Below are positions 928-29,010 of a DNA stretch of 55,083 nt, one piece after another. The stretch's first letter is position 1. Each line of letters opens with the position of its first letter. A model generated the notes under the pieces. It did not search any database. It saw only the letters and a list, made by a program, of their open reading frames with translations, and was not told where the DNA came from. This stretch comes from a virus. Taxonomy: Duplodnaviria > Heunggongvirae > Uroviricota > Caudoviricetes. The translations under genes and the position numbers were made by a program. Location of the stretch: IMG/VR virus record IMGVR_UViG_2923307698_000002, positions 1 through 55,083 of that record; one strand, written 5' to 3'.

Positions 928-1086
928 CTTCTTCCTCCTGGTAACATGGGGTTAGGGTTTCGTGAAAATATGGCATCAGAACAGCGGCAGCCTGTAACCG
1001 TATTTCTGTTGGCTGCTGCTTGTCGTTCATGATTTCCGTGAGTACATCAATAGGGTCTGTGATGTATTCGCTCATAGTTCGCTACC

Positions 1087-1575
1087 TCAGTGTTTTAAGC
1101 CAGTTGGTGGCTTAGGGATGGGGAACCGATTTGAGGAGACATTAGCGGCATTGAGTTTTTTAACCTCTTTTTTCCCAATGCTGCCGATCTTGCGGTGGGT
1201 GAACTGGGCCAGCTTAAACGCGGCATCTAAAGCCAGTTTTTGATCTGTGTCCATGTTGTCAATCAGTATCCTGCCCATTGCTTTGATGGGGTCGGGTAGG
1301 CCGTTATCCATCATCTCAATGGTGTTAATTGATGCCCGTTCCGGTGTAACTTTTTCGGTAACTTTCTTTGTAACTTTTTTCGGTTTTGTAACCTGAAAAG
1401 TTACATCAGAAGTTACAGCCTTAAGATACTTTTTCACCTCCGGATCATTGGATAGCTGCCAGCCTTTAACCCTTGCAGTCTTTTCGCTGTATCCCGCATG
1501 TATCGCGGCTTCCGTTGGATTTGTGCCCTTTGATAACGCATCAGCAAACCGCTTTTTTTTGGTCGTTAATGCCAT
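1087..1575 (-). CDS. terminase small subunit (P27-like family)
   Basis: Start placed at internal ATG 1575 (MALTTKKKRFADALSKG...) with GAGG RBS; the ORF track extends to 1713 but the upstream part lacks an RBS; N-terminal HTH-like motif typical of P27-type TerS. Confidence 0.75.
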   Translation of the reverse strand: MALTTKKKRFADALSKGTNPTEAAIHAGYSEKTARVKGWQLSNDPEVKKYLKAVTSDVTFQVTKPKKVTKKVTEKVTPERASINTIEMMDNGLPDPIKAMGRILIDNMDTDQKLALDAAFKLAQFTHRKIGSIGKKEVKKLNAANVSSNRFPIPKPPTGLKH

Positions 1576-1702
1576 GCAAAAACCTCGTTTTGAGGGGGTG
1601 TAACTTTTCGTGTAACTTTTTTGAAAAGCAAAATTTTCTATGAATGAGACGGGGGGCGGTGTCCAGGGCGATCGACTTTCCGGCCGGAACACTCCCCCCC
1701 TG

Positions 1703-1864
1703 TCATTGCTCACCGAGTAACGAGATCAGGCCTTCAACTTCATCACTCAGCTTGTTTATTCGTGTCTCAAGCTCTGCGATCTTTTCCATCAATGGCGCTA
1801 TGGTGTCTCTTGTTTCCTCGCCAATGGCTTTAATGATGCTTGCCTCGCGTTCTGTGATAGCCAT
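1703..1864 (-). CDS. small coiled-coil hypothetical protein (53 aa)
   Basis: ORF below the 60-aa track cutoff, found by hand translation (MAITEREASIIKAIGEE...); ATG lies 3 nt after the upstream gene stop (TAAACAATG), suggesting coupling. Confidence 0.3.
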   Translation of the reverse strand: MAITEREASIIKAIGEETRDTIAPLMEKIAELETRINKLSDEVEGLISLLGEQ

Positions 1865-1867
1865 TGT

Positions 1868-2062
1868 TTACGCCTCACTTGTTGCAATGCCCAGGCGTTC
1901 GCGTAACAGTACGCGCGCAAGATGCCCTATTGTTGGTGTTGCCGCCCTGCCGTAGATACCTGATTCATTCATCCGGCGCACAATATCGAACTGCAACTTT
2001 TTAAGCTCGTTAAGGATTTCATGATCAATCATCACGGTAGCGCTTTGCTTTATCTCTTCCAC
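1868..2062 (-). CDS. hypothetical protein (64 aa)
   Basis: GTG start at 2062 preceded by AGGAGA at 7 nt; sits between replication and packaging modules. Confidence 0.4.
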   Translation of the reverse strand: MEEIKQSATVMIDHEILNELKKLQFDIVRRMNESGIYGRAATPTIGHLARVLLRERLGIATSEA

Positions 2063-2149
2063 TTTGTTTTCTCCTGATACTTATCATTGCATAACCAGTA
2101 TTTTCGATAGATTATCATTAATTAACCATCTTTGAAGATATATGAGATC

Positions 2150-2175
2150 GAAAAAAAGCCGGATTGCTCCGGCTA
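2150..2175 (-). terminator. rho-independent terminator after rep operon
   Basis: Hairpin GCCGG-attgct-CCGGC followed by T-run on the minus strand, downstream of the 81-aa gene. Confidence 0.45.
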
Positions 2176-2192
2176 TGTGCTCACTTCTTCGG

Positions 2193-2438
2193 TTATTCTC
2201 CAGCGCTTTTAACGTTGATGGTTGTTACCTGTTCCGCTTCGGCAATCTCCCGTTCTGTCAGCGTGGCAAAGTTTGCCGCCGCGGTGGTCATGAATGCGCT
2301 TATCAGTTCGGGATGCTCCTTCGCGTATCCTTCCCCCGCGTGGCGGTCTATCGTTCTGATTGCCACCTTTAAGGAAAGCTCTGTCATGTCTAACGCTTTA
2401 TATTTTGGCGCTGTCTTATCTCTGGTTTTTCTGTTCAT
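2193..2438 (-). CDS. hypothetical protein (81 aa), last gene of rep operon
   Basis: ORF immediately downstream of the iteron array; start uncertain (ATG 2438 or internal ATG 2387). Confidence 0.4.
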   Translation of the reverse strand: MNRKTRDKTAPKYKALDMTELSLKVAIRTIDRHAGEGYAKEHPELISAFMTTAAANFATLTEREIAEAEQVTTINVKSAGE

Positions 2439-2640
2439 TCCCCACTACTCCCCACTTTTGCTCCCCACTTTTTGAAATTACCCACCGTCTCCCCACCTCT
2501 TTTTTTTGTGATTCTAACGTTATGTTTTTCAATATGTTTTTTACTCCCCACTTTTTTGGGTATATACAGGTGGGAAAGTGGGTAATTATGTTTCAATTTT
2601 GTTAAATTCCCCACTCCCCCCACTTTTACTCCCCACTTTT
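2439..2640. repeat. iteron array, putative satellite replication origin
   Basis: At least 7 copies of TCCCCACT(TTT) in direct orientation plus an inverted copy (aggtgggaaagtggg) and an AT-rich tract, immediately 3' of the rep stop codon. Confidence 0.6.
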
Positions 2641-4040
2641 TACAGCGGGCGCACGTCATCACCGTCAATAACGATTACGCCATCATTTTCCAGCTTGTAC
2701 AGCCAGCGCCGGAAGTGCTTCATCTCATACCCCAGCTTTTTCATATCGTCGCGGAGAAGGGCGATAGTGCACGCCTCCCCGTGTGCTGTTCGTGTTCTGA
2801 TGCACTGCCATAGCGCGGCGTGATTCTCCGTCTTGTTCCCTGCCTCCTCGATGCGCTCCAGTTCAACGGGAGGGCGCGGCTTATCCACCACCACCAGCGA
2901 CGTGATTAACTCCCCGTCAGCGTCGGTAAAAAGCTCCACCACGCGTAAGTCATATGCTGCTTCTTTGAGTTCCTCCGCGTCCTTCATTTTGGTACATGAG
3001 ATAACCAGCGCTTCGCTGCCTGCGTCCTCCCTGCGTATCCGGTATTCGGCGTCCAGTGATGCACGAAATGCACTGGAACCACGCGCCCCCTTTGTTTCAT
3101 CCTTGCCGGAATGGTGAACCACCAGCACCGTTGCCCCTGTGCGCCGTTTCAGTTCGTCACACCCACGGATAAACGCCCCCATATCACGGGAATCATTTTC
3201 ATCATTGCCGCCAAAGCAGCGCGCCAGCGTATCCAGAATAATCATTCGAACCGGTTTACCCGTTTCCCGTTCCACCTGACGGGCAGCGATAACCATTTCC
3301 TCAACATCAAGCGGGGCAGCCGGAAAGATGGGACGGTTTACCAGATACAGATTTTTCACCTGCTCACCGTGCACAACCTCCCAGGCTTTTACACGACGCG
3401 GAACGCCGATACCGCCTTCACCAACCACATAGAGAACAGCGCCATGCGCCACCCTGCGGCCTCCCCACTGGCGGCCCGTGGAAACGTGACACGCCCACGA
3501 ACCCGCAAGGAACGATTTATATGAACCGCTCGCCCCGTATATGCTGCACAGCGATACCGCCGGAATAATCCCCTTAACCACGTAATCAAGTTGTGTGTCG
3601 TATCCGGCAGATCCCACGCTCATTGGTAGCGTGGTTTTTCGCTGGTGGTGTTTTTCTTCCCCTGGCTTTTTCCCCCGCTCCCGTTCCAGATATTCGCGCC
3701 AGTTCTCCCGCTTCTGGCTGTGCATCCCTTCGGGGTAATAATTCGCATCAGTTACACCCGCCGCCGCCAGCTTGTGCGCAATGGCATTAATATTTGATGG
3801 CCTGATGTGGCCTGCCTTGTACAGCCGGACACAATAGCGCCCCTCGTCGATGATTCTCAGGTCTGCCAGTTCATCCAGTTGATCATCAGCCAGCACAACG
3901 GGAGGCACATTATCGCCAGCCAGTCGCCCGTCCTGTTCCTGCCACTGTTTCGCATGTGCCCAGGCATCACTACCCGCAAAAATAATGACTTCGGTCATCT
4001 TGTCGTAAGGCTGTTTTTTTAAGTTCGGTGCGCTTTTCAT
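2640..4040 (-). CDS. replication initiator/helicase, RecA-like P-loop ATPase
   Basis: 466 aa; Walker A YGASGSYKS and Walker B-like MIILD; ATGA overlap with upstream gene; iterons directly downstream. Confidence 0.75.
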   Translation of the reverse strand: MKSAPNLKKQPYDKMTEVIIFAGSDAWAHAKQWQEQDGRLAGDNVPPVVLADDQLDELADLRIIDEGRYCVRLYKAGHIRPSNINAIAHKLAAAGVTDANYYPEGMHSQKRENWREYLERERGKKPGEEKHHQRKTTLPMSVGSAGYDTQLDYVVKGIIPAVSLCSIYGASGSYKSFLAGSWACHVSTGRQWGGRRVAHGAVLYVVGEGGIGVPRRVKAWEVVHGEQVKNLYLVNRPIFPAAPLDVEEMVIAARQVERETGKPVRMIILDTLARCFGGNDENDSRDMGAFIRGCDELKRRTGATVLVVHHSGKDETKGARGSSAFRASLDAEYRIRREDAGSEALVISCTKMKDAEELKEAAYDLRVVELFTDADGELITSLVVVDKPRPPVELERIEEAGNKTENHAALWQCIRTRTAHGEACTIALLRDDMKKLGYEMKHFRRWLYKLENDGVIVIDGDDVRPL

Positions 4041-4336
4041 TTCTTGCCCCTGAATCCGTTAATCATGGTTTTCAGCTTCTGGATGTTTGCCCGTGCCCTG
4101 GCGTTGCTGGTGGGCACGTTATGCGGCGCGGTCTGTACCAGAGAAAAATCACGCCGGAACTGATAAACAGGCATCACGCAATCATATTCGTAACCTTCAC
4201 GGCGGTAAGTTACGCACCGTCCCGCCACGCCCTTAATCATTACCGTGCCGCCGTACTGGTCGCGGTAAATATCACCGCGCGTAAATTTAGGGTGAGTGTT
4301 GCCACTGGCAGTTAAGCCAGAATATTTAAGTTTCAT
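4037..4336 (-). CDS. hypothetical protein (99 aa)
   Basis: Stop overlaps rep start (ATGA); part of minus-strand operon. Confidence 0.4.
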   Translation of the reverse strand: MKLKYSGLTASGNTHPKFTRGDIYRDQYGGTVMIKGVAGRCVTYRREGYEYDCVMPVYQFRRDFSLVQTAPHNVPTSNARARANIQKLKTMINGFRGKK

Positions 4337-4341
4337 TATTT

Positions 4342-4575
4342 TTATTCTCCGGTGTGCTGTTCGTTATATCTGTCGTGCAATAGATCTATTTCTTGCAGTT
4401 CCATTATTACAGGCTCAAGAAGCGTTATTAATGCTGTGGCAATTCTTGATTTTTGTTTGTCGCGTTCATTGTCGCCAAGTGTTTCAAGCCATATGCGCAA
4501 TATTTCGTACATACCTTCAGCGTAAGCAAGGGCACTAAATGCGCGGTCTATTGTTTCGTGGTAAATATCACGCAT
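4342..4575 (-). CDS. hypothetical protein (77 aa)
   Basis: ORF in tight operon arrangement. Confidence 0.4.
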   Translation of the reverse strand: MRDIYHETIDRAFSALAYAEGMYEILRIWLETLGDNERDKQKSRIATALITLLEPVIMELQEIDLLHDRYNEQHTGE

Positions 4576-4576
4576 A

Positions 4577-4798
4577 TTAATCCCCGTCCGTTGTTTTTCT
4601 TAAAACAGCTTCTGTCACGAAATCAGCATAGTTAGCGGCAATATCAAGAATATTTAGCCCTGTATCTCTGTGCTCATCAGTGCAAAGAAAGAAAAAAGCC
4701 ACCCGCATAATTTCAGATATTGACGAAAGCGCATCAGCCGCATCATCAGGAACGCCGGAAAATTCTTGTTTCAGGGAATTAAAACGATCATCACGCAT
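4577..4798 (-). CDS. hypothetical protein (73 aa)
   Basis: ATG at 4798 is 2 nt downstream of a G8 homopolymer on the coding strand. Confidence 0.35.
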   Translation of the reverse strand: MRDDRFNSLKQEFSGVPDDAADALSSISEIMRVAFFFLCTDEHRDTGLNILDIAANYADFVTEAVLRKTTDGD

Positions 4799-5013
4799 AA
4801 CCCCCCCCCATTTTCACAATCAGCAACAAGAATATTTTTAGCGTCATTCAGCGACCGCGTTGCGATGTATCGGATACATTCCAGGGCGAACTGTGTCCGG
4901 TCTTTCTGTTCTTCTCCCTGCGCAAGCTCTGCAGTGCATTCAATATCGATAAGCGCGTGCATCAGCGTAGTGAGCGCGGCGGCTGCTGCGTCCGGTGTGG
5001 TTTTATTGCACAT
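4771..5013 (-). CDS. hypothetical protein (80 aa)
   Basis: Start placed at ATG 5013 with AGGAGG at 6-7 nt; 3' end overlaps the next gene across the G8 tract. Confidence 0.35.
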   Translation of the reverse strand: MCNKTTPDAAAAALTTLMHALIDIECTAELAQGEEQKDRTQFALECIRYIATRSLNDAKNILVADCENGGGLCVMIVLIP

Positions 5014-5203
5014 GGCACACCTCCTGACGAATACGGGCGGCGAATACAGCAACACAACCGGACGGGCAACGGCTACGCGCTTCGCGTTCCGTCCAGGCGG
5101 TTACGTGGATGATTTGAGATTCTCCGGCACTCAGTGCCAGAAAACGCCACACAAAGGCCGTTTGTGTGTGTACAAGGTGTGGTATATGATTTACGGCAAC
5201 CAT
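5003..5203 (-). CDS. hypothetical protein (66 aa), first gene of leftward operon
   Basis: ATG 5203 with AGGAG at 5 nt. Confidence 0.3.
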   Translation of the reverse strand: MVAVNHIPHLVHTQTAFVWRFLALSAGESQIIHVTAWTEREARSRCPSGCVAVFAARIRQEVCHVQ

Positions 5204-5387
5204 AACGGCTCCTAGTTTACGTTGTTGGTTAGACGCCCCGTATGTGTTCCCGCACTGCGGGGTGTTGTTATTTGGTGCATCGCACCATCTGTTTTTAACC
5301 TATCAGCAAGTGAATCGCACTTCAAGCCTTTTTCTCTGAATTTTTTTTGTGTATACTGAATCGCACCAACTTAGAGAGGATTCTGTA
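5204..5387. promoter_or_regulatory. divergent promoter/operator region of the satellite
   Basis: Three copies of TG(A/C)ATCGCAC at 5279-5285, 5314-5320 and 5360-5366; palindrome CCGCAcTGCGG near 5251; TATACT -10-like element; between divergent operons. Confidence 0.45.
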
Positions 5388-5567
5388 ATGGCAACAGGTT
5401 CAACAAATAATAAGTCGCAACAGTTAAATGCCAGATTCCCGCATGATGTTGTTGCAGACTTAGAAAAAAATTTAGATGAAGGTGAAAGCAAAGCGCAATT
5501 TATAGTTACTGCCGTTAAAGGCGAAATCAAACGCCGCCAGCGCCGCAAGGCCAAAGAGCAGGAGTAA
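5388..5567 (+). CDS. ribbon-helix-helix (CopG-like) regulator
   Basis: ATG 5388 after AGAGAGGA; N-terminal beta-strand/helix pattern (QQLNARFPHDVVADLEK...AQFIVTAVKGEI) typical of RHH proteins; basic C-tail. Confidence 0.5.
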   Translation: MATGSTNNKSQQLNARFPHDVVADLEKNLDEGESKAQFIVTAVKGEIKRRQRRKAKEQE

Positions 5568-5609
5568 CCATCACCAGCGCCGTGGTGTGAGGTACTACGG
5601 CGCATTGCT

Positions 5610-5798
5610 ATGCAGGACAACACAATGACCGATAAAGAATTGACCAAAACATTATCACCGGCACGGAAAAGACGGCGCAGAAAGATAGAGCATGAATCAG
5701 AAAGATTCGCACCATGTGCTTTTGCCCTTGAGCAATTCCTTAAAGAGTACAGGGAAAAGCGCTCATTGCAGGTATGGCAACGAACTGAACCAGACTGA
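5610..5798 (+). CDS. hypothetical basic protein (62 aa)
   Basis: ORF downstream of the RHH gene; start may be the internal ATG at 5625. Confidence 0.3.
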   Translation: MQDNTMTDKELTKTLSPARKRRRRKIEHESERFAPCAFALEQFLKEYREKRSLQVWQRTEPD

Positions 5799-5885
5799 TT
5801 GCATTGCCCACCAGCCTGATAGCGGCTATCATCCCCGTGCTTATGTTTGGGATCACATACACATAAGGCGCAGCGGGTTAATTGT

Positions 5886-5912
5886 TCAGAAAGGCGGCTC
5901 CATATCGGGGCC
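5886..5912 (+). terminator. rho-independent terminator
   Basis: GC hairpin (gcggctcc...ggggccgc) followed by T6; lies between convergent genes. Confidence 0.4.
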
Positions 5913-5946
5913 GCTTTTTTCGTGTTTGTCATATCTGTGATACCCG

Positions 5947-6153
5947 TTAAGCAGCCGTTCCGCGTGCTTCCTCTTCGCGTTCTTTCTGCCAGGACAACAC
6001 ATCATCCTCATACCATCCGCGACGGCGTAAACCAACGCGAAAACCCTGCGGAAATTCTCCGGCGTTGATCATGCTTTGCAGCGTGCTGTCTGCCTTGATG
6101 TGGATAATTTTTTTTACTTCCTGGCGAAAGATAATTTTTCTGATTGCTTCCAT
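5947..6153 (-). CDS. alpA: AlpA-family transcriptional regulator/excision activator
   Basis: 68 aa; pattern IIRQ-EV...L...AGEFP...G.RR.GW.EDDV..W matches AlpA/Vis-type MerR-like HTH as recalled. Confidence 0.7.
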   Translation of the reverse strand: MEAIRKIIFRQEVKKIIHIKADSTLQSMINAGEFPQGFRVGLRRRGWYEDDVLSWQKEREEEARGTAA

Positions 6154-6282
6154 CGTGATTTACCTTGTGAATCCGGTGTATTCCGGTGACAAATACGGTA
6201 AATCATCGGATATGGGTAAAAACAGTTCCCACCGTTTTTAAACGGTATACACCGTTTTTTATATTGATGATTTGAAATGGAA

Positions 6283-6310
6283 TTATAAAAAAAGCGGCAT
6301 TTCTGCCGCT
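6283..6310 (-). terminator. rho-independent terminator
   Basis: 7-bp stem AGCGGCA/TGCCGCT with T-run on the minus strand, downstream of the 83-aa gene. Confidence 0.45.
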
Positions 6311-6320
6311 TCCAGGATTG

Positions 6321-6572
6321 TTACCGCCATTTTTTGGGCCTGCCTCCGATCTTCATAGATGCCGGACGTACGACCTTATCAATACTTACCGCCAGATTTC
6401 TGGAAGCGCCACGGGATACCAGAAAATCTACTACCTGTTTTTTTGATGGGGCCGTCGTTCTGTCCTCCGGATCGTAGGTTGACCAAAATTCATGCTGAAC
6501 CATCAGGGCCAGTTGCAGCCCGTCGCAATTGCATCTGATATTTTTTTGCATCTTAACGGTTTCATGTTTCAC
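6321..6572 (-). CDS. hypothetical protein (83 aa)
   Basis: ORF between alpA and int; basic C-terminus. Confidence 0.4.
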   Translation of the reverse strand: MKHETVKMQKNIRCNCDGLQLALMVQHEFWSTYDPEDRTTAPSKKQVVDFLVSRGASRNLAVSIDKVVRPASMKIGGRPKKWR

Positions 6573-6649
6573 GGCCTTGTCGTTAAATTTGATGCAATTA
6601 TACGACGGTTTTACATGGTTTTCGTAGTTTTTACTGGTTTTCTGTACAG

Positions 6650-7891
6650 CTACACGGCTCGGATACCCCTTTTACCACTGGCGAGGGTTACGCCCGTCGC
6701 CGCAGCCTCGACAAATTCGCCCCACCAGCGCATCAGCACGATGCGTTTTTCTATGTAGTTGCTCCGGTTGTATGCCCGTCTAACTTCGTTGGTGTCGACG
6801 TGGGCAAGTGCCGCCTCTATTACGTCCGGCTCGAATCCTTCCTCGTTCGCTGCTGTGCTGAATATGGCGCGTAATCCATGAGACACCAGCACGCCAGCGA
6901 ATCCCATACGCCGCAATGCTGCGTTAGCTGTCTGGCTGTTCATCGGCTGCTGTGGGTCTTTCAGACTTGGGAAAACGTAATTGCGGTGGTGGCTGATTGG
7001 TTTCATGGCCTCCAGCACCGCCATAGCCTGACCGGAAAGCGGGATAACGTGATCCCTGCGCATCTTCATGCGTCCGGCAGGTATCGTCCATTGCTTCGCG
7101 TCCAGGTTGATTTCATCCCACCGCGTTGATGACGCTTCGGCGGGACGGGTTACGGTCAGTAACTGCCATTCAATCAGTAATCTGGTCTGCCGTTCTGTTG
7201 CCGATACTGATAAAGCCTGCATAAGCTCGGGCAGCTGTTCGGGGCGGATTGTTGGCATATGTTTTTTTACAGGTGAGGGAAACGCCTTACGCACATTCAT
7301 AGCCGGATTGGCATCAATCAGCCCACTGTTGGCGGCGTAATCCATTACCTCATTAACGCGCTGTAAAACCCGCTTGAGTGTTTCCAGGTTGCCGCGCTCC
7401 TTGATGGGGGTAAGCACTTCAACGAACCTTCGGGCGGTGAGGGTATCTATTGGCGTGTTGCCGATGAACGGGAATACATATTTATCCAGCGAACGCCAGA
7501 TGTCTTTAATCGTGTTGGGGGCCAGATTCTGGCTGATTTTCACCTGGTACCATGCCGCCGCCACATTTTCGAACGTGTTCCCTTGTCTTCGGGCCTCTGT
7601 CTCTCTTTTTTGCCTCTCGTGGTCCTGTGGGTCAGTTCCGGCACTGATTAACGTCCTGTACTCGCTACGGCGTTTTCTGGCATCAGCCAGGGAAACATCT
7701 TCAAGCGATCCAAAACTCAGCAATATTCTTTTTTTGTCCGATGGTCGGTAGTAGGAAAATCTCCAGAGTTTTGATCCAGACGGTTTGACCAGGAGAAAAA
7801 GCCCTCCGCCGTCCTGCAGGGTGTACTCCTTTTGCGCTGGTCTGGCTGCTTTGATCTGCACTGTGGTTAATGGGTGTGTTTTTCTCGCCAT
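6650..7891 (-). CDS. int: tyrosine integrase, P4-like
   Basis: ATG at 7891 (MARKTHPLT...); N-terminal arm-binding-like domain and C-terminal catalytic domain with conserved R...H.LR...Y pattern; adjacent to tRNA fragment. Confidence 0.9.
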   Translation of the reverse strand: MARKTHPLTTVQIKAARPAQKEYTLQDGGGLFLLVKPSGSKLWRFSYYRPSDKKRILLSFGSLEDVSLADARKRRSEYRTLISAGTDPQDHERQKRETEARRQGNTFENVAAAWYQVKISQNLAPNTIKDIWRSLDKYVFPFIGNTPIDTLTARRFVEVLTPIKERGNLETLKRVLQRVNEVMDYAANSGLIDANPAMNVRKAFPSPVKKHMPTIRPEQLPELMQALSVSATERQTRLLIEWQLLTVTRPAEASSTRWDEINLDAKQWTIPAGRMKMRRDHVIPLSGQAMAVLEAMKPISHHRNYVFPSLKDPQQPMNSQTANAALRRMGFAGVLVSHGLRAIFSTAANEEGFEPDVIEAALAHVDTNEVRRAYNRSNYIEKRIVLMRWWGEFVEAAATGVTLASGKRGIRAV

Positions 7892-7925
7892 ATGTCTATG
7901 ATTCCACACGAAAAAACAGGGTTTT

Positions 7926-7975
7926 AGTTATACGGCTTTAGTTATACGCCAGCCCGTATAACTAAACGTATAACT
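7926..7975. promoter_or_regulatory. putative integrase arm-type binding sites
   Basis: Four copies of a 9-bp motif: AGTTATACG at 7926-7934 and 7940-7948, inverted CGTATAACT at 7955-7963 and 7967-7975, between int start and the att core. Confidence 0.4.
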
Positions 7976-8109
7976 AAAAAATCCGGCTGATAGCTTATAA
8001 ATCCGGTGATGTTCGGTGACTAAAAAACATAAAAAAACCCGCCAATCAAGTGATTAGCGGGTTATCCCTGTCTTATCCGGTGCTTTCCGGTGATATCCGG
8101 TGGGCGATT

Positions 8110-8155
8110 TGGTCGGCACGAGAGGATTTGAACCTCCGACCCCCGACACCCCATG
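8110..8155 (-). other. attachment-site core: 3' 46 nt of tRNA-Pro(GGG)-like gene (partial tRNA, no 5' half)
   Basis: Minus strand reads CATGGGGTGTCGGGGGTCGGAGGTTCAAATCCTCTCGTGCCGACCA: anticodon loop with GGG, variable loop, T-arm GGAGG/TTCAAAT/CCTCT, acceptor and CCA; upstream sequence cannot form acceptor or D arms. Confidence 0.65.
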
Positions 8156-8370
8156 TCACCGCGCCTGAAACGCTGGAGACCGCGCCATTGCTGGGCTGGC
8201 AGGGTGTTTCACTGTGTGCGCAAACAGTGCATAATTCGCAAAATTCACGCTATATACATCAATGAGTTAAGAGAGATTTTTCCCCACTCCTAAATGGTCA
8301 GTTTTTGGAGCATTACTATATTAATAGGTTCCGTCTATAGCACTTTTTGATTTGCTTCTAATATGCTTTT

Positions 8371-8397
8371 CTGTGGATAAGATTTAGTTATCCACAG
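8371..8397. promoter_or_regulatory. inverted pair of DnaA-box-like sequences
   Basis: CTGTGGATAA-gatttag-TTATCCACAG; TTATCCACA matches the DnaA box consensus; about 200 bp upstream of the 255-aa gene. Confidence 0.3.
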
Positions 8398-8593
8398 ACT
8401 TATCTCCTAAGTTTCCGAGCGGCTACATGTTTTTTGTTGATTGTTTTATGTTTGGCGTAAAGTCAACAATTACTTCGCTTTTTGACCATTTTAGCCCATT
8501 GGAAATTACGATCATCTTCATGTAACCTTCTAAAACTTACTAAGATTGCAGAAGTTAAAGCAACATAGCTCGTAGTTTCTTAAAGGTGATTTA

Positions 8594-9361
8594 ATGCCAC
8601 AGCCGGCGCTAAAAGCGAACGAAATCAGCAGTGAATTAATCGATATTCTTGCGGCTCGGAATACGATATCCGAAATGCAATATTTTCGTTATATCAGAGA
8701 TATAGAAAAGTTGCGCGACAGCGCATCTGAGGACTATCTCAAAGCGTTGGCTAATGGTGCTTTTGGGCGTAAAGATACTGCAGTTGCATTCTTTGAAGAA
8801 GCATTGAAGCATAACAACCTGATCATTGCTCAAAATTATGTAGTTTATCTCAACGATTACGGCAGCTTCCGTGAAGTTGAACAAGTGGTAAATCGATTAG
8901 TTGAACGTTATAACTCCCCTACGATGCTGTCCCATGCATGGGAAGCTAACTTGTTCTTGGGGCGTATTGACAAAGCGCTCTACTATGCTGAGAGATTGAT
9001 AAGTATGGTAGATGAAAAGGAGGCTGAATTGGTTAAGCACCTCGCAGCCACAGCACTGGCCCAATCCACGACCTTCAAAAGTGCAACTGGAATTACTGAT
9101 GAAGAACTACAGGATATTGCAAACCGCATAGTGGATATCATGGCTGACCATAAAGTTAGTCCTGTTGCTATGTCTTTCTGCTCTATCCCTGAAGAGCGTA
9201 CGTCATCATATGTCATGGCAGTTAATACTGAAGATTCTGATGTTCTCTCTGATATGAACTTGGATATAGCATTTTCTCTTGCAGAAAATGAAAGTTTGAT
9301 TGGAAAACCCTTCAGCGTATGGTTTGAAGGGCGTTTGGAGGAACCTGCGCGTGCCAGTTAA
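8594..9361 (+). CDS. hypothetical protein (255 aa), first gene of two-gene cargo operon
   Basis: ATG 8594 after AAGGTGA; AT-rich codon usage unlike the flanking phage DNA; no family recognised. Confidence 0.55.
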   Translation: MPQPALKANEISSELIDILAARNTISEMQYFRYIRDIEKLRDSASEDYLKALANGAFGRKDTAVAFFEEALKHNNLIIAQNYVVYLNDYGSFREVEQVVNRLVERYNSPTMLSHAWEANLFLGRIDKALYYAERLISMVDEKEAELVKHLAATALAQSTTFKSATGITDEELQDIANRIVDIMADHKVSPVAMSFCSIPEERTSSYVMAVNTEDSDVLSDMNLDIAFSLAENESLIGKPFSVWFEGRLEEPARAS

Positions 9362-9734
9362 TAGTTCCGATTTTATCGCTTTCGCAAAAGATTGTGAAAA
9401 GCGTAACGACGAAATTGGTTACAGAAACGCTGTCGCACGTGCGTATTATGGTGCTTATCACCACGTACTTCCGTGTTTGACCATGGGGCCGAAAGAAAGT
9501 CACCAAGGCCTCATTGACTATCTTGTTAACGATGCTTGGAAGGGTAACGAACCTTTTGAAAAAAGAGACTTAATTGGTTTGGGGTATGCTCTTCAATCGC
9601 TTAAGGATCAGAGAATAGTTTGTGATTACAGACTTAACGACACTATTACGCCAACCCAATCAAGCACCGCGATTAAGACTGCAGAGAAATTAATCCAGCG
9701 TTGCGCTAATATGACCAAGTCTAAAGCGTCCTAA
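9351..9734 (+). CDS. hypothetical protein (127 aa), possible HEPN-like fold
   Basis: Probable GTG start at 9351 after GGAGG, overlapping the upstream stop; contains R-x6-H (RAYYGAYH); assignment speculative. Confidence 0.45.
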   Translation: MPVNSSDFIAFAKDCEKRNDEIGYRNAVARAYYGAYHHVLPCLTMGPKESHQGLIDYLVNDAWKGNEPFEKRDLIGLGYALQSLKDQRIVCDYRLNDTITPTQSSTAIKTAEKLIQRCANMTKSKAS

Positions 9735-9740
9735 TCCCCA

Positions 9741-9770
9741 AAATTGGCCTCATTTGAGGCCAATTTTATT
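9741..9770 (+). terminator. rho-independent terminator
   Basis: Hairpin TTGGCCTC-attt-GAGGCCAA followed by TTTTATT. Confidence 0.5.
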
Positions 9771-9774
9771 ATGC

Positions 9775-10140
9775 ATTGTATTTAATTTCACCGTGCGGAA
9801 GCATTACCCAATCATATGGTTCCGCGTATAAATTTTCGTTGATTTCGCGTCGCTGTGGGCTATGAGCCCTTGTGGTCTACTCCCTGTTTATCAAACAAAA
9901 TGCAGCTAGTGCGCGTATTTTGTGGAATGTGGGGGCGCAGCTCCATCGTCAAATTATTACACAAGCCTAACGAATCACGGGGCAATGAAAAGTATGGCTA
10001 AGATAGGCAGGTGCGGATACCTCTTTACTGCGTTTGTTATTACGCTCGGTATACGGTGAACGATATACGGGCAGGCAACGTTATCGCGACTGTTATCAAT
10101 AATACGTTTCAGTTTGTCCTCGAACTACATCACAACCGGC
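9775..10140 (-). pseudogene. integrase 3'-end remnant (frameshifted fragment)
   Basis: Nucleotide and translated similarity to the 3' third of the intact int at 11312-11700 (e.g. ...QGLIAHSDAKSTKIYT vs ...QGRMAHSDAKSTKIYT); 1-nt indel and stops; no 5' part. Confidence 0.6.
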
Positions 10141-10217
10141 TTGAAAACTAATTACTGGATTTTGTGCCTCCATAATCATATGATTTAAAATGTTATTTTA
10201 TAAAAAAGGAGTTGTAT

Positions 10218-11174
10218 ATGACCAATTTGTATAAGTTTATGGGAGCGGATATAATTGATAAATTGATGATGGATGAAACACATATAGGAATAAAATTCTC
10301 TCATTTACATGAATATAATGATCCCTATGAGTTTTTCCTTACTATTGATTTTAATCGCGGTTCTGATGAGTTAGCATTTTACAATGAAATGATTGGCATG
10401 GTTACAAAACAACCAGCAACTTGTTTTACGAAAAGCCCTGTGATACCACCTATGTGGGCACATTATGCAGGTAATTCTTCTGGTTTTGTAATAGAGATTA
10501 ATGAGGAGAAGTTTAAAAAGTATTTGGATGAAATCGGCTTCCAGGATCATAGTTCAATAGCAGATGTTGAATATAAAGATTCTCCAGATACAGGTATTGA
10601 AGACATTCTGGCGAGAGCATTTCATATCTGTAAACCTCGTTATATCTACTGGCTACAATCCTGTATAATGACAGCCGCATATTTGACAAAACAAACTTGC
10701 TGGAGTTATGAGCAGGAACGTCGCGTAATAATTAATGAGAAAGCACTTACTAAACTGAATGACAATCTTATGCTCCTTCCGGTACCGATTAATTGTATAA
10801 CTGGAGTTATAGTTGGGCACAAATCAAATGATTTATTAAAGCAGAAAATTCAATCTTTAGCTAAAAAGGCTAAATGTAGATATTTCGAAATGGTAATAGG
10901 AAAAACAACAACTACACCATTTCTTTTATCTCAAAATCTCAAATCACACCAATTTATTAATGGCAATATAATACCTGCATCAAGGCAATGTAAAAAATGT
11001 TATGAGCCTTTAAACATGGAAAATAAAGTTTGTGGCTGGTGTGGAATTACTAATCATGATGTGAAAATGGCAGAGTACCGTAATTCATTTCGAATGATAG
11101 CCAACTATGGTGGGCTGGATAAATATATATCATCCATGAATAAGATTACTGAAGAGTATAATAAGGGTAAATAA
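10218..11174 (+). CDS. DUF2971-like protein with C-terminal zinc ribbon
   Basis: ATG 10218 after AAAGGAG; motifs LYKF...FS...NDPYEF, MWAHYA, WSYEQERR recalled as DUF2971 signature; C-x2-C-x13-C-x2-C at the C-terminus; AT-rich. Confidence 0.55.
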   Translation: MTNLYKFMGADIIDKLMMDETHIGIKFSHLHEYNDPYEFFLTIDFNRGSDELAFYNEMIGMVTKQPATCFTKSPVIPPMWAHYAGNSSGFVIEINEEKFKKYLDEIGFQDHSSIADVEYKDSPDTGIEDILARAFHICKPRYIYWLQSCIMTAAYLTKQTCWSYEQERRVIINEKALTKLNDNLMLLPVPINCITGVIVGHKSNDLLKQKIQSLAKKAKCRYFEMVIGKTTTTPFLLSQNLKSHQFINGNIIPASRQCKKCYEPLNMENKVCGWCGITNHDVKMAEYRNSFRMIANYGGLDKYISSMNKITEEYNKGK

Positions 11175-11311
11175 ATTTTATTAATAAATATTGCTTTCTG
11201 GACAAGGGAGAAGTTATGGTAAATGGGCATAGAACTGCCTTTTAAATTAAGCTTTACTCTATGCCTTAGCAACCGTTATTGTCAGTCAAAATAAAGTGGA
11301 GAATTTAATAA

Positions 11312-12496
11312 CTAACCGGTTTTAATTTCTCCATGAGGGACAACAATCCAATCTATATGATTTTTAGTATAAATTTTAGTAGATTTCGCATCGCTATGTG
11401 CCATTCGTCCCTGCGGATCAATCCCTTGTTTATCAAATAGGTGAGCTGCCAAAGCTCTTATTTCATGGAATGTAGGTCTTTGTTCCATTGCTAGATGATT
11501 GCATAGTCCGAGTTTGTCTCGCACGGAAGAGAATGACCGACTCAAATAATCTGGTGCAACTTGAGTTGGGTGCGAAACCTCTTTACTGCGTTTAACATGC
11601 CGTTCTGGGATTCTATGAACGACAAAGGGACTGGCCACATTGTCACGGCTATTGTCAATTATCCGTTTCAATTCTTCACCAATTGGTATTGCAACATGTG
11701 ATGCCTCCTTTTTTTGTACTTTTTGCCTATGGATGTATAGTGTACCATATATGCCATTTTGTGGTTGTTCGAACCAAACACATCCACATAAACCGTCTTT
11801 AGGTTCGCGAATTGAGTAACGGATTCGCGATACTTCGAGTCGTGCATGTGTAGTCTGCAATGCTAGGTCCATTGCTGTTCTTAACCATGGTGCAGCGGCC
11901 TGCCTGATAGCTATAAAATGCTCGAGTGACAGGCGCCGTCTTTTCTTCTCATCAGTCCTACGCATTTTTTTTCTGATGGCCGGGTTATCCTGCATTAGTG
12001 ATTCATCGACCGCATAAGAGAACAACTTTTTAAGAAAGCTGACCTTTCTGTTCTGCACATTTGCGGATGCGCTGGCATGATATTTGTTGATGTAGGCATT
12101 AACGTGTTCAAGTTCGATATCGCATGCCGGAACATTTACGAAAAACGCTTTTACGCGTAGAGCGTCATTTTTCCAGTCATCTAAGGTACTCTGGGAAGGT
12201 CGTTCGTCTTCGATAATTCTGGCCATTATGTGATCGACATGTTCAGCAAATGGTTTTGCTTCTCCGGTGACCCCGCCAGATTCTCTAATAAGATTATCCA
12301 CTGATGGGTATAATTCTGATCGCATCCTCAGGTTGTACTCTCTGGCGATTGCAACGGCTATTGCCCGATCCTTACCTATATTTTTCTTTTTTCCGGTAAT
12401 AAGTGTGAATTTATAAACACCTCGATCTTTATCAAAAACCAGATAATCAGGAAGATGTCTGTATTCTTTTTTACGTGGCCTTGCCGCCATGGTCAT
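11312..12496 (-). CDS. int: tyrosine integrase, lambda-type
   Basis: 394 aa; N-terminal arm-binding region and C-terminal catalytic domain; ATGA overlap with xis. Confidence 0.9.
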   Translation of the reverse strand: MTMAARPRKKEYRHLPDYLVFDKDRGVYKFTLITGKKKNIGKDRAIAVAIAREYNLRMRSELYPSVDNLIRESGGVTGEAKPFAEHVDHIMARIIEDERPSQSTLDDWKNDALRVKAFFVNVPACDIELEHVNAYINKYHASASANVQNRKVSFLKKLFSYAVDESLMQDNPAIRKKMRRTDEKKRRRLSLEHFIAIRQAAAPWLRTAMDLALQTTHARLEVSRIRYSIREPKDGLCGCVWFEQPQNGIYGTLYIHRQKVQKKEASHVAIPIGEELKRIIDNSRDNVASPFVVHRIPERHVKRSKEVSHPTQVAPDYLSRSFSSVRDKLGLCNHLAMEQRPTFHEIRALAAHLFDKQGIDPQGRMAHSDAKSTKIYTKNHIDWIVVPHGEIKTG

Positions 12497-12702
12497 CCCT
12501 CATTTATTAACTTGCGAACAGCTTGACTAACCATTGAGTCGACTCCCCATTTTTCTGTTTCGCAGACAAAAACAGAACCGTCCACGATACGCCCCATGAG
12601 CAGACCGTTCTCGACCCAGCGTTTTATCGTTCGGTTGTCAGGAATTGAGCCATTAGAGAATTCACGGCGTCCCCATTGGCTCGCTTTCATTAGTTTTGCC
12701 AT
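12493..12702 (-). CDS. xis: excisionase (Xis-like)
   Basis: Start placed at ATG 12702 with GGAGAAA RBS (69 aa); coupled upstream of int. Confidence 0.6.
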   Translation of the reverse strand: MAKLMKASQWGRREFSNGSIPDNRTIKRWVENGLLMGRIVDGSVFVCETEKWGVDSMVSQAVRKLINEG

Positions 12703-12763
12703 GGCTGTTTCTCCACTTAACCCGCTGCACACGGGCAGTAATATCAAATTTCAGTCCTGATAA

Positions 12764-12979
12764 TTAATTTTGTTCTCTGGTTGCTACCTGTTTAATTGGC
12801 CTGATGCTGTCCAGGAGCAGTCGGCGGCGCGTATTTTCTGCAAAGTGGCGGCGTCCGGTTTCTTTGTGGTAAAACTCGTTTTCTCCGACGACCCACATCC
12901 GCTTTGTCTGGTGCAGTTTTTTTACCTGCGGACCGTTTCGGGTAATAACAATTCCTGTATGAGTTTTTATCACGCTCAT
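12764..12979 (-). CDS. hypothetical protein (71 aa)
   Basis: ATG 12979 with GGAGAA RBS; early-left operon. Confidence 0.4.
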   Translation of the reverse strand: MSVIKTHTGIVITRNGPQVKKLHQTKRMWVVGENEFYHKETGRRHFAENTRRRLLLDSIRPIKQVATREQN

Positions 12980-13338
12980 TTCTTATTCTCCGGTGCTTTC
13001 GGCATTACTGCCCAGTGAGTGATATTGACGTTTTCAAGGTCCCCGACCTGAAATGTCCACTGCCATTCTCCGGTTTCTTTTTGTCCCCAGGTGTACCAGA
13101 GAGAACGCCAGCCAATTAGCCAGCCTTCTCCGTTAGCATCAAATAACAGAACACTTTCATTTGCAGGTGGCAGTTCAGCTGACACTGGTATTATTTTGTT
13201 TTCCAGTGCCGCACATTTAGCTTCAAGCGCGTCGAATTTACGTACTAGGTACTCAGCATTTGTTTCGTTCACTTTCAGATCTCGCGGTACACATTTCCCG
13301 CGAAGAAACCCTTCCATTTCGAAAACATTCATGCGCAT
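12976..13338 (-). CDS. hypothetical protein (120 aa), Trp-rich C-terminus
   Basis: ATGA-coupled ORF in the early-left operon. Confidence 0.45.
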   Translation of the reverse strand: MRMNVFEMEGFLRGKCVPRDLKVNETNAEYLVRKFDALEAKCAALENKIIPVSAELPPANESVLLFDANGEGWLIGWRSLWYTWGQKETGEWQWTFQVGDLENVNITHWAVMPKAPENKK

Positions 13339-13865
13339 TTGCGTAACTCCGATAACTCGTTAAAGCGTTCCATAAACATCCCGTAGGCATGGCCCGGTGC
13401 CAGTGGAATCACGTTGAACATCTCTGTTGCCGGGATACCTTCCAGTACAGGCCAGAAAGAGCCATCATCAAGCCCGAGATCGCGGCGTTCGGTTGCCAGC
13501 ATGATGAGATCGGCATATTTCACGGGCGTACTCATAACTGGGGGTAACCCGTATTTCTCACGGATTACGGCGTCTATTTTTTCTTCCATTTGTTTATAGT
13601 CAGGAAGAAGGCGTTTCAGTGGTGCGGGAATGTCCTGGCAATACGCTTCTGTTGCATCATGCATTAACGCTTCAAAAGCAAATTCCTGCGGCACCAACTG
13701 GCTGCAAAGAACCGCATGTTGGGCGACGCTGTAGAAGTGCGAAAGATGACCGGCAAAGCGACAGATATTTGAAAGGGAAACCGCGATATCGTTAATATCG
13801 ATGTCGTCTTTATTTATCCTGTCATAATAAAAATGCTTCCCGGAAAAAGTTTTAATAAATGACAT
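13329..13865 (-). CDS. HD-domain phosphohydrolase (YfdR-like)
   Basis: Start at ATG 13865 with GGAGAA RBS; H...HD motif (LMHDATEAY) and conserved His residues. Confidence 0.6.
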   Translation of the reverse strand: MSFIKTFSGKHFYYDRINKDDIDINDIAVSLSNICRFAGHLSHFYSVAQHAVLCSQLVPQEFAFEALMHDATEAYCQDIPAPLKRLLPDYKQMEEKIDAVIREKYGLPPVMSTPVKYADLIMLATERRDLGLDDGSFWPVLEGIPATEMFNVIPLAPGHAYGMFMERFNELSELRKCA

Positions 13866-13992
13866 TTTGTTCTCCACGTATATGCGCTGCACCGCGCTGA
13901 ATTTTGGTTAAAGAAAACCCTCGCCATCAGGCGATTATTGAGTTAATTACGTTTCCATAAATGCCCCCGCAGGGGCATTTGCAGTAATGAAA

Positions 13993-14817
13993 TCAGGCGG
14001 TGAAAGTACCAATAAAGGTTTCTACTTTGCTGTCTTTGAATTTTTCAACAAGCAGATCACGAAATTCGTTAGCCATTTCTTCCTGTACTGCTTCCAGCTG
14101 AATAATGCGCAGAACCAGTACAGGGCGATCACCAGTGATAATGCTGAGGCGTAATTTAAACGGACGTTCTTTCAGGCCTTCAAACGGAACGCATTTAAAC
14201 TCAAATGCTACTGGCATAATGTCTTTGGTTTTCGCTTCGACAGACTCCATCAGAGAGCGTTTGCCGCTGAAGTCATTGTCTTCAAAATCAGCGGTCTGGT
14301 TTGCTTCAATCGTGATTTTACGGACCGCCGCAGCCGCTTTTGTTGCCTGAATGGCGTCACCATTAGCATCAAAGCCCACAAGGTAGTCGGCCCAGTCTTC
14401 AATCCATTCTGCCAGTGACTTCTGGGAGTTACGCTCGCCGTTAACAGACAACAGGGCAGAGAACGGTGCTGTCTTTTTCAGTTTGAGAGTGGCGGTGTTA
14501 TCTGCGTGACCTGGTTCATCAATAGTACCCAGGTTAAGCACACTGACGGCTCGCATATTATCAGCATCGATAAAGCAGCGGGTGCCTTCATCTGCAAGAT
14601 CTTTAGAATAACGGGTAAAGTCATCGATGCTGGCAGTGGAAAGCGCACCACGGAAACGGAAGCGATTTAAATTAAATTTTTCCAGATCATGAATGCGGAA
14701 ATTCTCAGGCAATGCCACAGCATCGGCACCAATCTTACTGATAATTTCATTAACACCCTGAGCAGAAATAAGGGCATGGATTTGATTAATTGCGGTTGCG
14801 TCTAAGTTCTGAGACAT
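13993..14817 (-). CDS. hypothetical protein, YfdQ-like
   Basis: 274 aa; gene order HD-protein/274-aa protein resembles the CPS-53 yfdR-yfdQ pair; from recall only. Confidence 0.45.
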
Positions 14818-14882
14818 AATAAGTCCTCACTATATAAAGATATTCAGTGATGAGATAAATAATCAGTTAATTAAGAACGATA

Positions 14883-15903: not shown

Positions 15904-15927
15904 ATGAAAAGCCACCTTTGGGTGGCT
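15904..15927 (-). terminator. rho-independent terminator downstream of repressor gene
   Basis: Stem GCCACC/GGTGGC with T-run on the minus strand just 3' of cI-like stop. Confidence 0.5.
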
Positions 15928-15947
15928 AATTGATGAGGAGGTAAGGG

Positions 15948-28972: not shown

Positions 28973-29010
28973 TATTTGAGTTTTTGATCTAACATACGTC
29001 ACACTTGAAA

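What the first reader, a model, noticed from the sequence alone, without database searches (positions are those of the whole stretch)
8110..8155. Only the 3' 46 nt of a tRNA-Pro(GGG)-type gene is present: displaced att repeat implying tandem island array
The fragment has anticodon loop, variable loop, T-arm, acceptor 3' strand and CCA but no 5' half, so it is an att direct repeat rather than a functional tRNA. Because int of the satellite abuts it, the intact tRNA is expected further along the chromosome. This means the DNA from 8156 onward, the islet and probably the lambdoid prophage, is also inserted at or near the same tRNA locus.
Basis: partly seen in the sequence, partly recalled or inferred. 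Interest (0 to 1): 0.45.

Follow-up and report, generated by a model that had tools for sequence, protein, structure and literature searches.

The report
Displaced proL tRNA fragment between satellite and prophage
The 46 bases are the left-over 3' end of the E. coli proline tRNA gene proL, marking where a small phage satellite and a lambda-like prophage sit side by side at one tRNA gene; this is real but ordinary.

Summary
Observation confirmed. Window 8110-8155 is an exact reverse-complement copy of the last 46 nt of E. coli proL, tRNA-Pro(GGG), running from the anticodon loop to CCA. ARAGORN and Rfam find no tRNA there, and it is the only copy in the window.

Interpretation supported, from complete E. 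coli genomes. The empty locus reads yejO-proL-yejM. Some genomes have the satellite directly at intact proL, and their match to the window stops exactly at 8155. 52 genomes carry fragment, islet and prophage; in the three inspected the native yejO flank lies to the left, and in GZ04-0086 intact proL lies 777 bp beyond the window's end.

Refinements:
- The 46-nt block (plus TTT) is the identity block of the lambdoid prophage. Its integrase is 77% identical to that of phage Eeyore, whose attP carries the same 46 nt and a homologous arm.
- The satellite's unrelated P4-type integrase uses only the last 15 nt plus AA (8108-8124). In relatives its far-end repeat carries the 2-4-nt "damage" deletions published for tRNA-Pro PICIs.
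- The "islet" is attL-side prophage cargo with a decayed integrase relic, not a separate island.

This exact junction is absent from 5,426 complete genomes. The order of insertion cannot be resolved. It is a known kind of structure (tandem tDNA islands) and of low interest.

The parts
8110..8155 (-). Exact 3' 46 nt of proL tRNA-Pro(GGG), from the anticodon loop to CCA. It is the displaced tDNA fragment: the core of the prophage's distal att site, overlapping the satellite's int-proximal att site.
   Evidence: 46/46 identity to intact proL. No tRNA call. It is the only block invariant in the four-way junction alignment.
8108..8124 (.). Identity block of the satellite att site: the last 15 nt of the tRNA plus AA. 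This part was probably supplied by the satellite's attP.
   Evidence: At satellite far ends in 7 loci the similarity to the tRNA stops at CTCTCGTG, next to satellite arm sequence. The window and ZH48 share the left flank gggcgaTT.
7910..8107 (.). Int-proximal arm of the satellite att site. It holds four copies of CGTATAACTAAA (two direct, two inverted; 7922-7979), repeated TCCGGTGA motifs (8001-8103), and a terminator-like hairpin on the minus strand (8063-8036) 47 nt downstream of the CCA end.
   Evidence: The CGTATAACTAAA motif also occurs at the satellite's far end in ZH48 and FORC_028. Calling these integrase arm sites is inference.
6650..7891 (-). Satellite tyrosine integrase, P4 type, 413 aa.
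   Evidence: Pfam Arm-DNA-bind_3, Phage_int_M and Phage_integrase. The exact protein is indexed in 14,623 collection blocks, and in all 8 places shown it lies next to yejM, the gene that flanks proL.
1..6649 (-). Rest of the PICI-like satellite inside the window: capsid-like gene 1-927, small terminase 1087-1713, RepA-like AAA_25 helicase 2640-4040, DUF4222 4037-4336, AlpA-like HTH 5947-6153 (below threshold). The window starts about 0.4-0.7 kb short of the satellite's far end.
8156..8286 (.). Prophage P' arm, directly joined to the 46-nt core.
   Evidence: 81% identical, contiguous with the core, to phage Eeyore attP (PP925821 3837-4016), which lies immediately 3' of the Eeyore int gene. 100% identical in the prophage-bearing E. 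coli inspected.
8287..11311. The 'islet': cargo between the P' arm and the prophage int. It holds a TPR-like ORF (8594-9361), an ORF ending at 9734 (listed from 9300 by the ORF listing; the 127-aa gene call in relatives starts about 9351), a frameshifted C-terminal relic of an integrase of the prophage's family (about 9772-10169, minus strand), and a DUF2971 gene (10212-11174).
   Evidence: No tRNA fragment or other att copy lies inside it. It was present with the prophage int in all 10 contexts shown, though one (L025) keeps only the DUF2971 gene next to a rearrangement.
11312..12490 (-). Prophage integrase (lambda-type arm-binding domain), followed by a small xis-like ORF at 12493-12747.
   Evidence: 77% aa identity to the phage Eeyore integrase. 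19% identity to the satellite integrase, E 0.002. Pfam Arm-DNA-bind_1.
12491..55083 (.). Body of the lambdoid prophage (yfdP/Q/R-type early genes, CI/Cro, tail genes, tail fibre, DUF4236). It runs to the window end; in the closest relative intact proL follows 777 bp later.
53801..53872 (.). Probable relic of an older att junction. It is a near-exact copy of the prophage P-arm hairpin (53801-53827) followed by a shortened, mutated tRNA-3'-end-like stretch.
   Evidence: The hairpin matches 27/28, E 3e-8; alignment A2. The tRNA-like part alone is weak: local score 14, reached by 1 of 2000 shuffles, while other window tiles score 13-13.5.

Best explanation
The 46 nt are the displaced 3' end of the chromosomal proL gene. 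They now form the shared boundary of two integrative elements stacked at that gene.

The prophage. A lambdoid phage carries in its attP a copy of proL from the anticodon loop to CCA, a few downstream T's, and its own terminator hairpin. It recombined with proL, most likely by strand exchange in or next to the anticodon loop. The phage-borne copy rebuilt a working proL at the far (tail-fibre/DinI) end, predicted about 0.8 kb beyond the window. The old 3' end was left at the int end, joined to the phage P' arm (8156-8286).

The satellite. A PICI-like satellite has an unrelated P4-type integrase that recombines only within the last 15 nt of the tRNA plus AA. It sits on the downstream side of this same fragment. 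So 8108-8124 doubles as the satellite's int-proximal att core.

Shown: sequence identity, junction boundaries, integrase relationships, and the arrangement in relatives.

Inferred: the strand-exchange positions; that the window's genome continues as its relatives do; and that each element can still excise on its own. Prophage excision would put an intact proL next to the satellite int. Satellite excision would leave the fragment next to yejO.

Not resolved: whether the satellite arrived first and the phage then entered the intact tRNA, or the phage arrived first and the satellite then used the displaced fragment as a second attB. Both histories give the same structure.
For: - Exact 46/46 match to proL, with no tRNA call.
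- Matches from satellite-bearing genomes end exactly at 8155; the two inspected carry intact proL there. Matches from genomes with the fragment and islet start at 8108.
- The four-way alignment shows the block flanked by satellite arm or native terminator on one side, and by phage P' arm or tRNA 5' half on the other.
- Phage Eeyore attP has the same 46 nt, an 81% identical P' arm and an adjacent int. The window int is 77% identical to the Eeyore int.
- In GZ04-0086 a homologous P-arm hairpin precedes intact proL, 777 bp past the window end.
- Satellite far ends in 7 loci carry CTCTCGTG, then a 2-, 3- or 4-nt deletion, then the native flank. This is the variable-length acceptor-stem deletion described for tRNA-Pro PICIs in PMC10111431.
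- The principle of a regenerated target plus a displaced fragment, and of tandem arrays, is set out in the Islander paper PMC4383910.
Against: - The intact proL and the satellite's far-end repeat lie outside the window. Continuity with relatives is therefore assumed, not seen.
- No other sequence searched has this junction: 5,426 complete E. coli genomes, GTDB species representatives and metagenome contigs. There is no independent copy to confirm it.
- The islet contains an integrase relic but no att site of its own, so the history of the prophage's left end is only partly explained.
- Strand-exchange positions are inferred from identity blocks alone.
Confidence: 0.88

Rival explanations
1. 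Specific history A. The prophage integrated first, and the satellite later used the displaced 46-nt fragment as a secondary attB, rather than the regenerated proL.
For: The prophage-plus-islet configuration with a native yejO-side flank is common: 52 complete genomes and 1,623 collection blocks. It is 100% identical to the window at the junction. The fragment retains the whole 17-bp satellite identity block plus 31 further tRNA bases.
Against: In all 8 contexts shown for this integrase it sits next to yejM, the gene that flanks proL. No genome with the prophage shows a satellite at either site. The final structure is identical to that of history B.
Confidence: 0.45
2. Specific history B. The satellite integrated first at intact proL. 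The phage then integrated into the regenerated proL and pushed the 46-nt 3' end, with the satellite attached, away from the gene.
For: This order always produces the observed arrangement, with the newest element next to the intact tRNA. At least 152 complete genomes carry at least 80% of this satellite (the two inspected have it at proL). About 515 carry its far-end arm.
Against: The prophage region carries decayed relics (an int fragment and a relic att), which suggest long residence. None of the satellite-bearing complete genomes has acquired this prophage.
Confidence: 0.45
3. The join is an assembly chimera made by collapsing copies of the proL 3'-end repeat. In that case the satellite does not really adjoin the prophage arm.
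For: The junction was found nowhere else. The ORF spanning it is not on record. The shared repeat could in principle mislead a short-read assembler.
Against: The repeat is only 46-55 bp, shorter than the k-mers and reads normally used. Both flanks are in the orientation that site-specific integration predicts. The structure is exactly what tandem integration should give.
Confidence: 0.04
4. The locus is a complete but divergent tRNA-Pro gene, as RefSeq annotates the equivalent spot in APEC O78 and 2020N21-246-1.
For: RefSeq has a 78-nt tRNA-Pro there in two relatives. In those sequences the upstream GGCGCG can pair with the 3' acceptor strand.
Against: ARAGORN rejects the window and both relatives. 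The Rfam tRNA model gives no hit. The window version does not form an acceptor stem in its minimum-energy fold, z = +0.16. The upstream 31 nt are no more similar to the proL 5' half than shuffled sequence: 1885 of 2000 shuffles score as well.
Confidence: 0.02

Closest known systems
Tandem genomic islands at tRNA genes, as mapped by Islander/TIGER (PMC4383910; Williams 2002 sublocation classes, recalled from memory)
   Same: A regenerated tDNA at one end and a displaced 3' fragment at the other. The integrase gene lies next to the att site. Arrays form in which successive elements share the tDNA. Islander counted 125 tandems among 3,919 islands, and both anticodon-centred and T-stem-region attP sites.
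   Different: The two neighbours here use different sublocations of one tRNA (a 46-nt block against a 17-bp block) and unrelated integrases. The middle att site is therefore a composite of the two. Only one of the three att sites lies inside the window.
Escherichia phage Eeyore (PP925821) and phage Flotzy attP/int module
   Same: An identical 46-nt proL core followed by TTT(T). The P' arm is 81% identical and the integrase 77% identical. A terminator hairpin lies just downstream of the CCA end, with a DinI gene on the P-arm side.
   Different: In Eeyore the int gene follows the P' arm directly. In the window about 3 kb of cargo and an int relic lie between them. The rest of the prophage was not compared in detail.
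PICIs at tRNA-Pro that damage the attR fragment (PMC10111431)
   Same: A small int-alpA-like-replication-packaging island at tRNA-Pro. Relatives of the window's satellite show variable 2-4-nt deletions starting after CTCTCGTG in the acceptor stem of the far-end fragment.
   Different: The window's own far end is not visible. Here the satellite adjoins a non-functional fragment, so its excision would not touch the working proL.
P4 at leuX and CP4-57 at ssrA (P4-type integrases; recalled from memory, not tested here)
   Same: The integrase gene lies immediately downstream of the tRNA or tmRNA 3' end, in the same orientation, with a short 3'-terminal identity block.
   Different: A different target gene and different cargo. 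No P4 sid/psu/delta/alpha genes were seen; instead there are capsid-like, TerS and RepA-like helicase genes.

Membership tests
Functional tRNA gene | Full cloverleaf recognised by tRNA detectors | tested here: not met
   ARAGORN finds 0 genes in the window. Rfam gives no tRNA hit at gathering threshold or at E<=10 on 8000-8300. The real proL scores 54.9 bits.
Displaced tDNA fragment of an integrated element (Islander definition) | The fragment is identical to the 3' part of a tRNA gene | tested here: met
   46/46 identity to proL.
Displaced tDNA fragment of an integrated element (Islander definition) | An intact cognate tDNA in the same orientation on the same replicon, with the element between them | tested here: inconclusive
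   It is not inside the window. In the closest relative, GZ04-0086, it lies 777 bp past the window end in the same orientation.
Displaced tDNA fragment of an integrated element (Islander definition) | An integrase gene inside the interval, with the element carrying the tRNA 3' part in its attP | tested here: met
   Int at 11312-12490. The related free phage Eeyore carries the same 46 nt in its attP next to int.
Tandem array of tDNA islands | Each member has its own integrase and its own tDNA fragment | tested here: inconclusive
   Two unrelated integrases are present. The prophage's fragment is 8110-8155. The satellite's own far-end fragment lies left of the window; it is seen only in relatives, where it is damaged.
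PICI-type phage satellite | Small island with int, an AlpA-type regulator, a replication module and packaging genes, but no full virion gene set | tested here: inconclusive
   Int, an AAA_25 RepA-like helicase, Terminase_2 and a weak Phage_capsid match are present. AlpA scores 17.9 bits, below the 21-bit cut-off. Total size is about 8.8 kb in ZH48. Dependence on a helper phage cannot be tested with these tools.
PICIs that damage the tRNA attR fragment | Variable-length deletion starting at a fixed acceptor-stem position in the far-end fragment | tested here: inconclusive
   Met in 7 related loci with the same integrase or satellite. The window does not include that end.
Eeyore-like proL-integrating lambdoid phages | Homologous integrase, and an attP core plus arm identical or homologous at the junction | tested here: met
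   77% aa identity. The core is identical and the P' arm is 81% identical. The P-arm hairpin is homologous in GZ04-0086.

The most novel reading that the evidence does not exclude
By sitting between the satellite and the tRNA's 5' half, the prophage uncouples the satellite from the working proL. PICIs at tRNA-Pro leave a damaged far-end fragment, and the authors of PMC10111431 suggest this cripples the tRNA when the island excises, an addiction-like effect. In this arrangement satellite excision would only alter a dead fragment. The satellite also lies directly beside a lambdoid prophage that could be its helper. If the satellite actively chose the phage-made pseudo-attB, then prophage integration creates landing pads that place satellites next to potential helpers.
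Probability: 0.15. Interest if true: 0.5.

Novelty: new member of a known kind. Interest (0 to 1): 0.2.

Why it matters
The main value is for annotation.

- It fixes the exact boundaries of two mobile elements at proL.
- It shows that the 'islet' belongs to the prophage's left arm.
- It shows that the 78-nt 'tRNA-Pro' annotated at the equivalent spot in some RefSeq genomes is an att scar and not a gene.
- It gives a clean natural example of two unrelated integrases using nested sublocations of one tRNA gene (a 46-nt anticodon-loop-to-CCA block and a 17-bp 3'-terminal block).
- It shows a configuration in which satellite excision would not affect the functional tRNA.

None of this changes current understanding of tDNA integration.

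Tried and rejected
- Second copy of the fragment, or an intact proL, inside the window: none, even with 3 mismatches or blastn-short.
- The idea that the 31 nt upstream of the fragment are a decayed tRNA 5' half, prompted by the RefSeq tRNA-Pro calls in relatives and by a MAFFT alignment: rejected. Similarity to the proL 5' half is no better than shuffled sequence, with 1885 of 2000 shuffles scoring as well. The window version does not fold into an acceptor stem.
- My first reading, that the satellite's strand exchange lies in TTTGG(TC) at the CCA end because the far-end repeat looked imperfect: replaced. Seven loci showed variable 2-4-nt deletions at one position, which matches the published 'damage' phenomenon.
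- Exact-junction searches in GTDB representatives and in metagenome contigs: no hits.
- Look-up of the spurious 71-aa ORF spanning the junction, to find the source contig: not on record.
- Context look-ups for both integrases: none showed satellite and prophage together.
- A synthetic query for the opposite tandem order (prophage P arm | damaged fragment | satellite far arm): no genome covers it.
- A phage-database search for the prophage's right end, 52780-55083: no match.
- Literature searches for proL as a named prophage site in E. coli: nothing specific.

Full report
**The observation**

Window 8110-8155 reads TGGTCGGCACGAGAGGATTTGAACCTCCGACCCCCGACACCCCATG. Its reverse complement is identical, 46 of 46, to the 3' end of the 77-nt E. 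coli proL gene, as found intact in strains ZH48 and GZ04-0086. ARAGORN calls that intact gene tRNA-Pro with anticodon ggg.

Read on the minus strand, the fragment begins with the last base of the 5' strand of the anticodon stem. It then contains the anticodon loop AUGGGGU, the 3' stem strand, the variable loop, the T arm, the 3' acceptor strand and ACCA.

- ARAGORN finds no tRNA in the whole window.
- Rfam finds none at gathering threshold. At E<=10 on 8000-8300 there is no tRNA-model hit, only a 14.1-bit tRNA-Sec clan match at E 4.2. The real proL scores 54.9 bits.
- The 46-mer is unique in the window, even allowing 3 mismatches, and never appears in shuffles. A sensitive blastn-short search finds no second partial copy.

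**What lies on either side**

To the left, the window holds most of a small island:
- a P4-type tyrosine integrase at 6650-7891, minus strand (Arm-DNA-bind_3, Phage_int_M, Phage_integrase);
- a sub-threshold AlpA-like HTH;
- a DUF4222 gene and a RepA-like AAA_25 helicase;
- a small terminase and a capsid-like gene.

The 200 bp between int and the fragment hold four copies of CGTATAACTAAA, repeated TCCGGTGA motifs, and a terminator-like hairpin on the tRNA strand.

To the right come, in order:
- 131 bp of prophage arm (8156-8286);
- about 3 kb of cargo, the 'islet';
- a lambda-type integrase at 11312-12490, minus strand, with a xis-like ORF;
- a lambdoid prophage that runs to the end of the window.

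**Comparison with other genomes**

The undisturbed gene order is narP-yejO-proL-yejM.

At least 152 complete E. coli genomes hold at least 80% of the satellite, and their match to the window ends exactly at 8155. In ZH48 and FORC_028 the order is yejO-satellite-int-intact proL-yejM.

Fifty-two complete genomes hold the islet, and their match starts at 8108. In CCUG 73778 the order is yejO, native terminator, 46-nt fragment, islet, int, prophage.

GZ04-0086 is 99.6% identical over the last 10 kb of the window. There the prophage ends with a DinI-like pseudogene and a hairpin, followed by intact proL and yejM, 777 bp beyond the position matching window 55083.

A four-way alignment (A1) shows TTTGGTC...CCCCATG as the only block common to all four junctions. 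The window shares its left flank with the satellite genomes. It shares its right flank with the prophage genomes.

**Which element owns the 46 nt**

Free phages Eeyore and Flotzy carry the same 46 nt in one stretch with a P' arm that is 81% identical to window 8156-8286. This stretch lies directly beside their integrase gene. On the other side are a terminator hairpin and a DinI gene.

The window's prophage integrase is 77% identical to the Eeyore integrase. It is unrelated to the satellite integrase: 19% identity, E 0.002. The hairpin before intact proL in GZ04-0086 is homologous to the Eeyore hairpin.

The 46-nt block, with a few T's after CCA, is therefore the attP/attB identity block of this phage family. 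Its 5' edge lies one base outside the anticodon loop. That is the layout Islander calls an anticodon-centred attP site. Strand exchange within the loop is my inference.

**The satellite's own att site**

At the satellite's far end in seven loci, the tRNA-like sequence is only CTCTCGTG[..]ACCA, next to the native terminator. There is a 2-, 3- or 4-nt deletion immediately after CTCTCGTG. Satellite arm sequence follows on the other side.

This matches the published description of variable-length deletions that start at a fixed acceptor-stem position in the attR fragments of PICIs at tRNA-Pro. In that study only PICIs damaged the fragments; prophages did not (PMC10111431).

The satellite's identity block is thus the last 15 nt of the tRNA plus AA, which is window 8108-8124. 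The window's 46-mer is a composite. Its outer 15 nt were probably supplied by the satellite. Its inner 31 nt came from whatever target the satellite or the phage recombined with.

**The 'islet'**

The islet has no att copy of its own. It contains a frameshifted relic of the C-terminal 130 or so residues of an integrase of the prophage's family, at about 9772-10169. It lies between the phage P' arm and the phage int. It accompanied that int in all 10 contexts retrieved, although one of them (L025) keeps only the DUF2971 gene beside a rearrangement. I read it as attL-side prophage cargo plus the remains of an earlier, related prophage, and not as an independent island.

A second relic lies near the right end, at 53801-53872. 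It is a near-exact copy of the P-arm hairpin followed by a shortened, mutated tRNA-3'-like stretch. The tRNA-like part is weak evidence when taken alone. Both relics fit repeated use of proL by related phages.

**Mechanism and history**

The structure is what tandem site-specific integration predicts. Reading outward from the tRNA's 5' half, beyond the right end of the window, the order is:
1. regenerated proL;
2. prophage;
3. displaced 46-nt fragment;
4. satellite;
5. a short, probably damaged fragment;
6. yejO.

Two histories give this same structure. In one, the satellite came first and the phage then entered the intact gene. In the other, the phage came first and the satellite then used the displaced fragment. 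I cannot separate them.

No other sequence searched has satellite and prophage together in either order. This covers 5,426 complete genomes, GTDB representatives, metagenome contigs, and the contexts of both integrases.

One structural consequence holds under either history. In this arrangement satellite excision would not touch the functional proL. Prophage excision would restore the ordinary satellite-at-proL configuration.

**Rivals**

- A complete but odd tRNA. RefSeq annotates one at the same spot in APEC O78 and 2020N21-246-1. ARAGORN, Rfam, folding and a shuffle test of the upstream 31 nt all reject it.
- An assembly chimera across the 46-nt repeat. The window alone cannot exclude this, but it is unlikely given the repeat length and the fully consistent orientations.

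**Verdict**

- the 46-nt length belongs to the prophage;
- the satellite uses a nested 17-bp block;
- the islet is part of the prophage's left arm.

This is a well-understood kind of structure. Islander lists 125 tandems among 3,919 islands. The instance is new only in its particular combination of elements. Interest is low.

Noticed in passing
window 9037-9071, 9172-9204, 9588-9620 (inside the islet ORF 8594-9361 and the ORF ending at 9734): CRISPR arrays of several E. coli genomes (DH5alpha/K-12, W, LY180, STEC719, NY1601, B-766 and others) hold spacers 100% identical to these three sites. Each protospacer is preceded by AA or AT, with the matched G completing an AAG or ATG type I-E PAM. The islet genes have therefore been targets of E. 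coli CRISPR adaptation.
   Followed up: partly
window 53801-53872: A second, decayed copy of the prophage P-arm hairpin plus a shortened tRNA-3'-like stretch, overlapping the start of ORF 53281-53868 (minus strand). It is probably the scar of an earlier integration at proL. In that case the DUF4236/DinI' segment beyond it came from another element.
   Followed up: partly
L007 5955-6032 (APEC O78) and L006 3950-4027 (2020N21-246-1), equivalent to window 8110-8187: RefSeq annotates a 78-nt tRNA-Pro at the att scar in these relatives; ARAGORN and Rfam do not support it. In 2020N21-246-1 identity to proL runs 55 nt (through ACCGT and GCGC) rather than 46. The edge of the identity block therefore varies between prophage copies.
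   Followed up: partly
window about 9772-10169 (minus strand): A frameshifted, stop-containing relic of the C-terminal third of an integrase of the same family as the prophage int. It retains motifs such as KRIIDNSRDNVA and AHSDAKSTKIYT.
   Followed up: yes
window about 19332-20545 (minus strand); Rfam ALIL pseudoknot at 20148-20264: An IS3-family insertion sequence (two overlapping ORFs with a frameshift pseudoknot) lies inside the prophage early region, between the PerC-like and Dam-like genes. It is absent from the equivalent region of CCUG 73778.
   Followed up: no
L009, L011, L013, L014, L015 (loci with the identical satellite integrase): The same 413-aa integrase is attached to quite different satellite cargo: lambda-type gpE capsid, gpD-like HDPD, Nu1 terminase, SSB, PerC, ProQ, or a D5-type primase. 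The window has Terminase_2, a capsid-like gene and a RepA-like helicase instead. The integrase is listed in 14,623 collection blocks.
   Followed up: no
L017, L018, L025 (loci with the identical prophage integrase): In some genomes most of the prophage is deleted, leaving int, islet and DUF4236 between yejO and proL. In another (L025) the DUF2971 gene is followed by unrelated chromosomal genes (emrAB/evgAS-like), which suggests a rearrangement at this site.
   Followed up: no
window 52538-52736 (+): A full-length match to Rfam family IS009 (208.9 bits) lies within the tail-fibre assembly gene region of the prophage.
   Followed up: no
Phage Gifsy-2 NC_010393 44298-44334: A 37-nt stretch, 97% identical to window 8108-8144 (the first 35 nt of the proL fragment plus the 2 nt before it), occurs near the end of the Salmonella phage Gifsy-2 record.
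   Followed up: no
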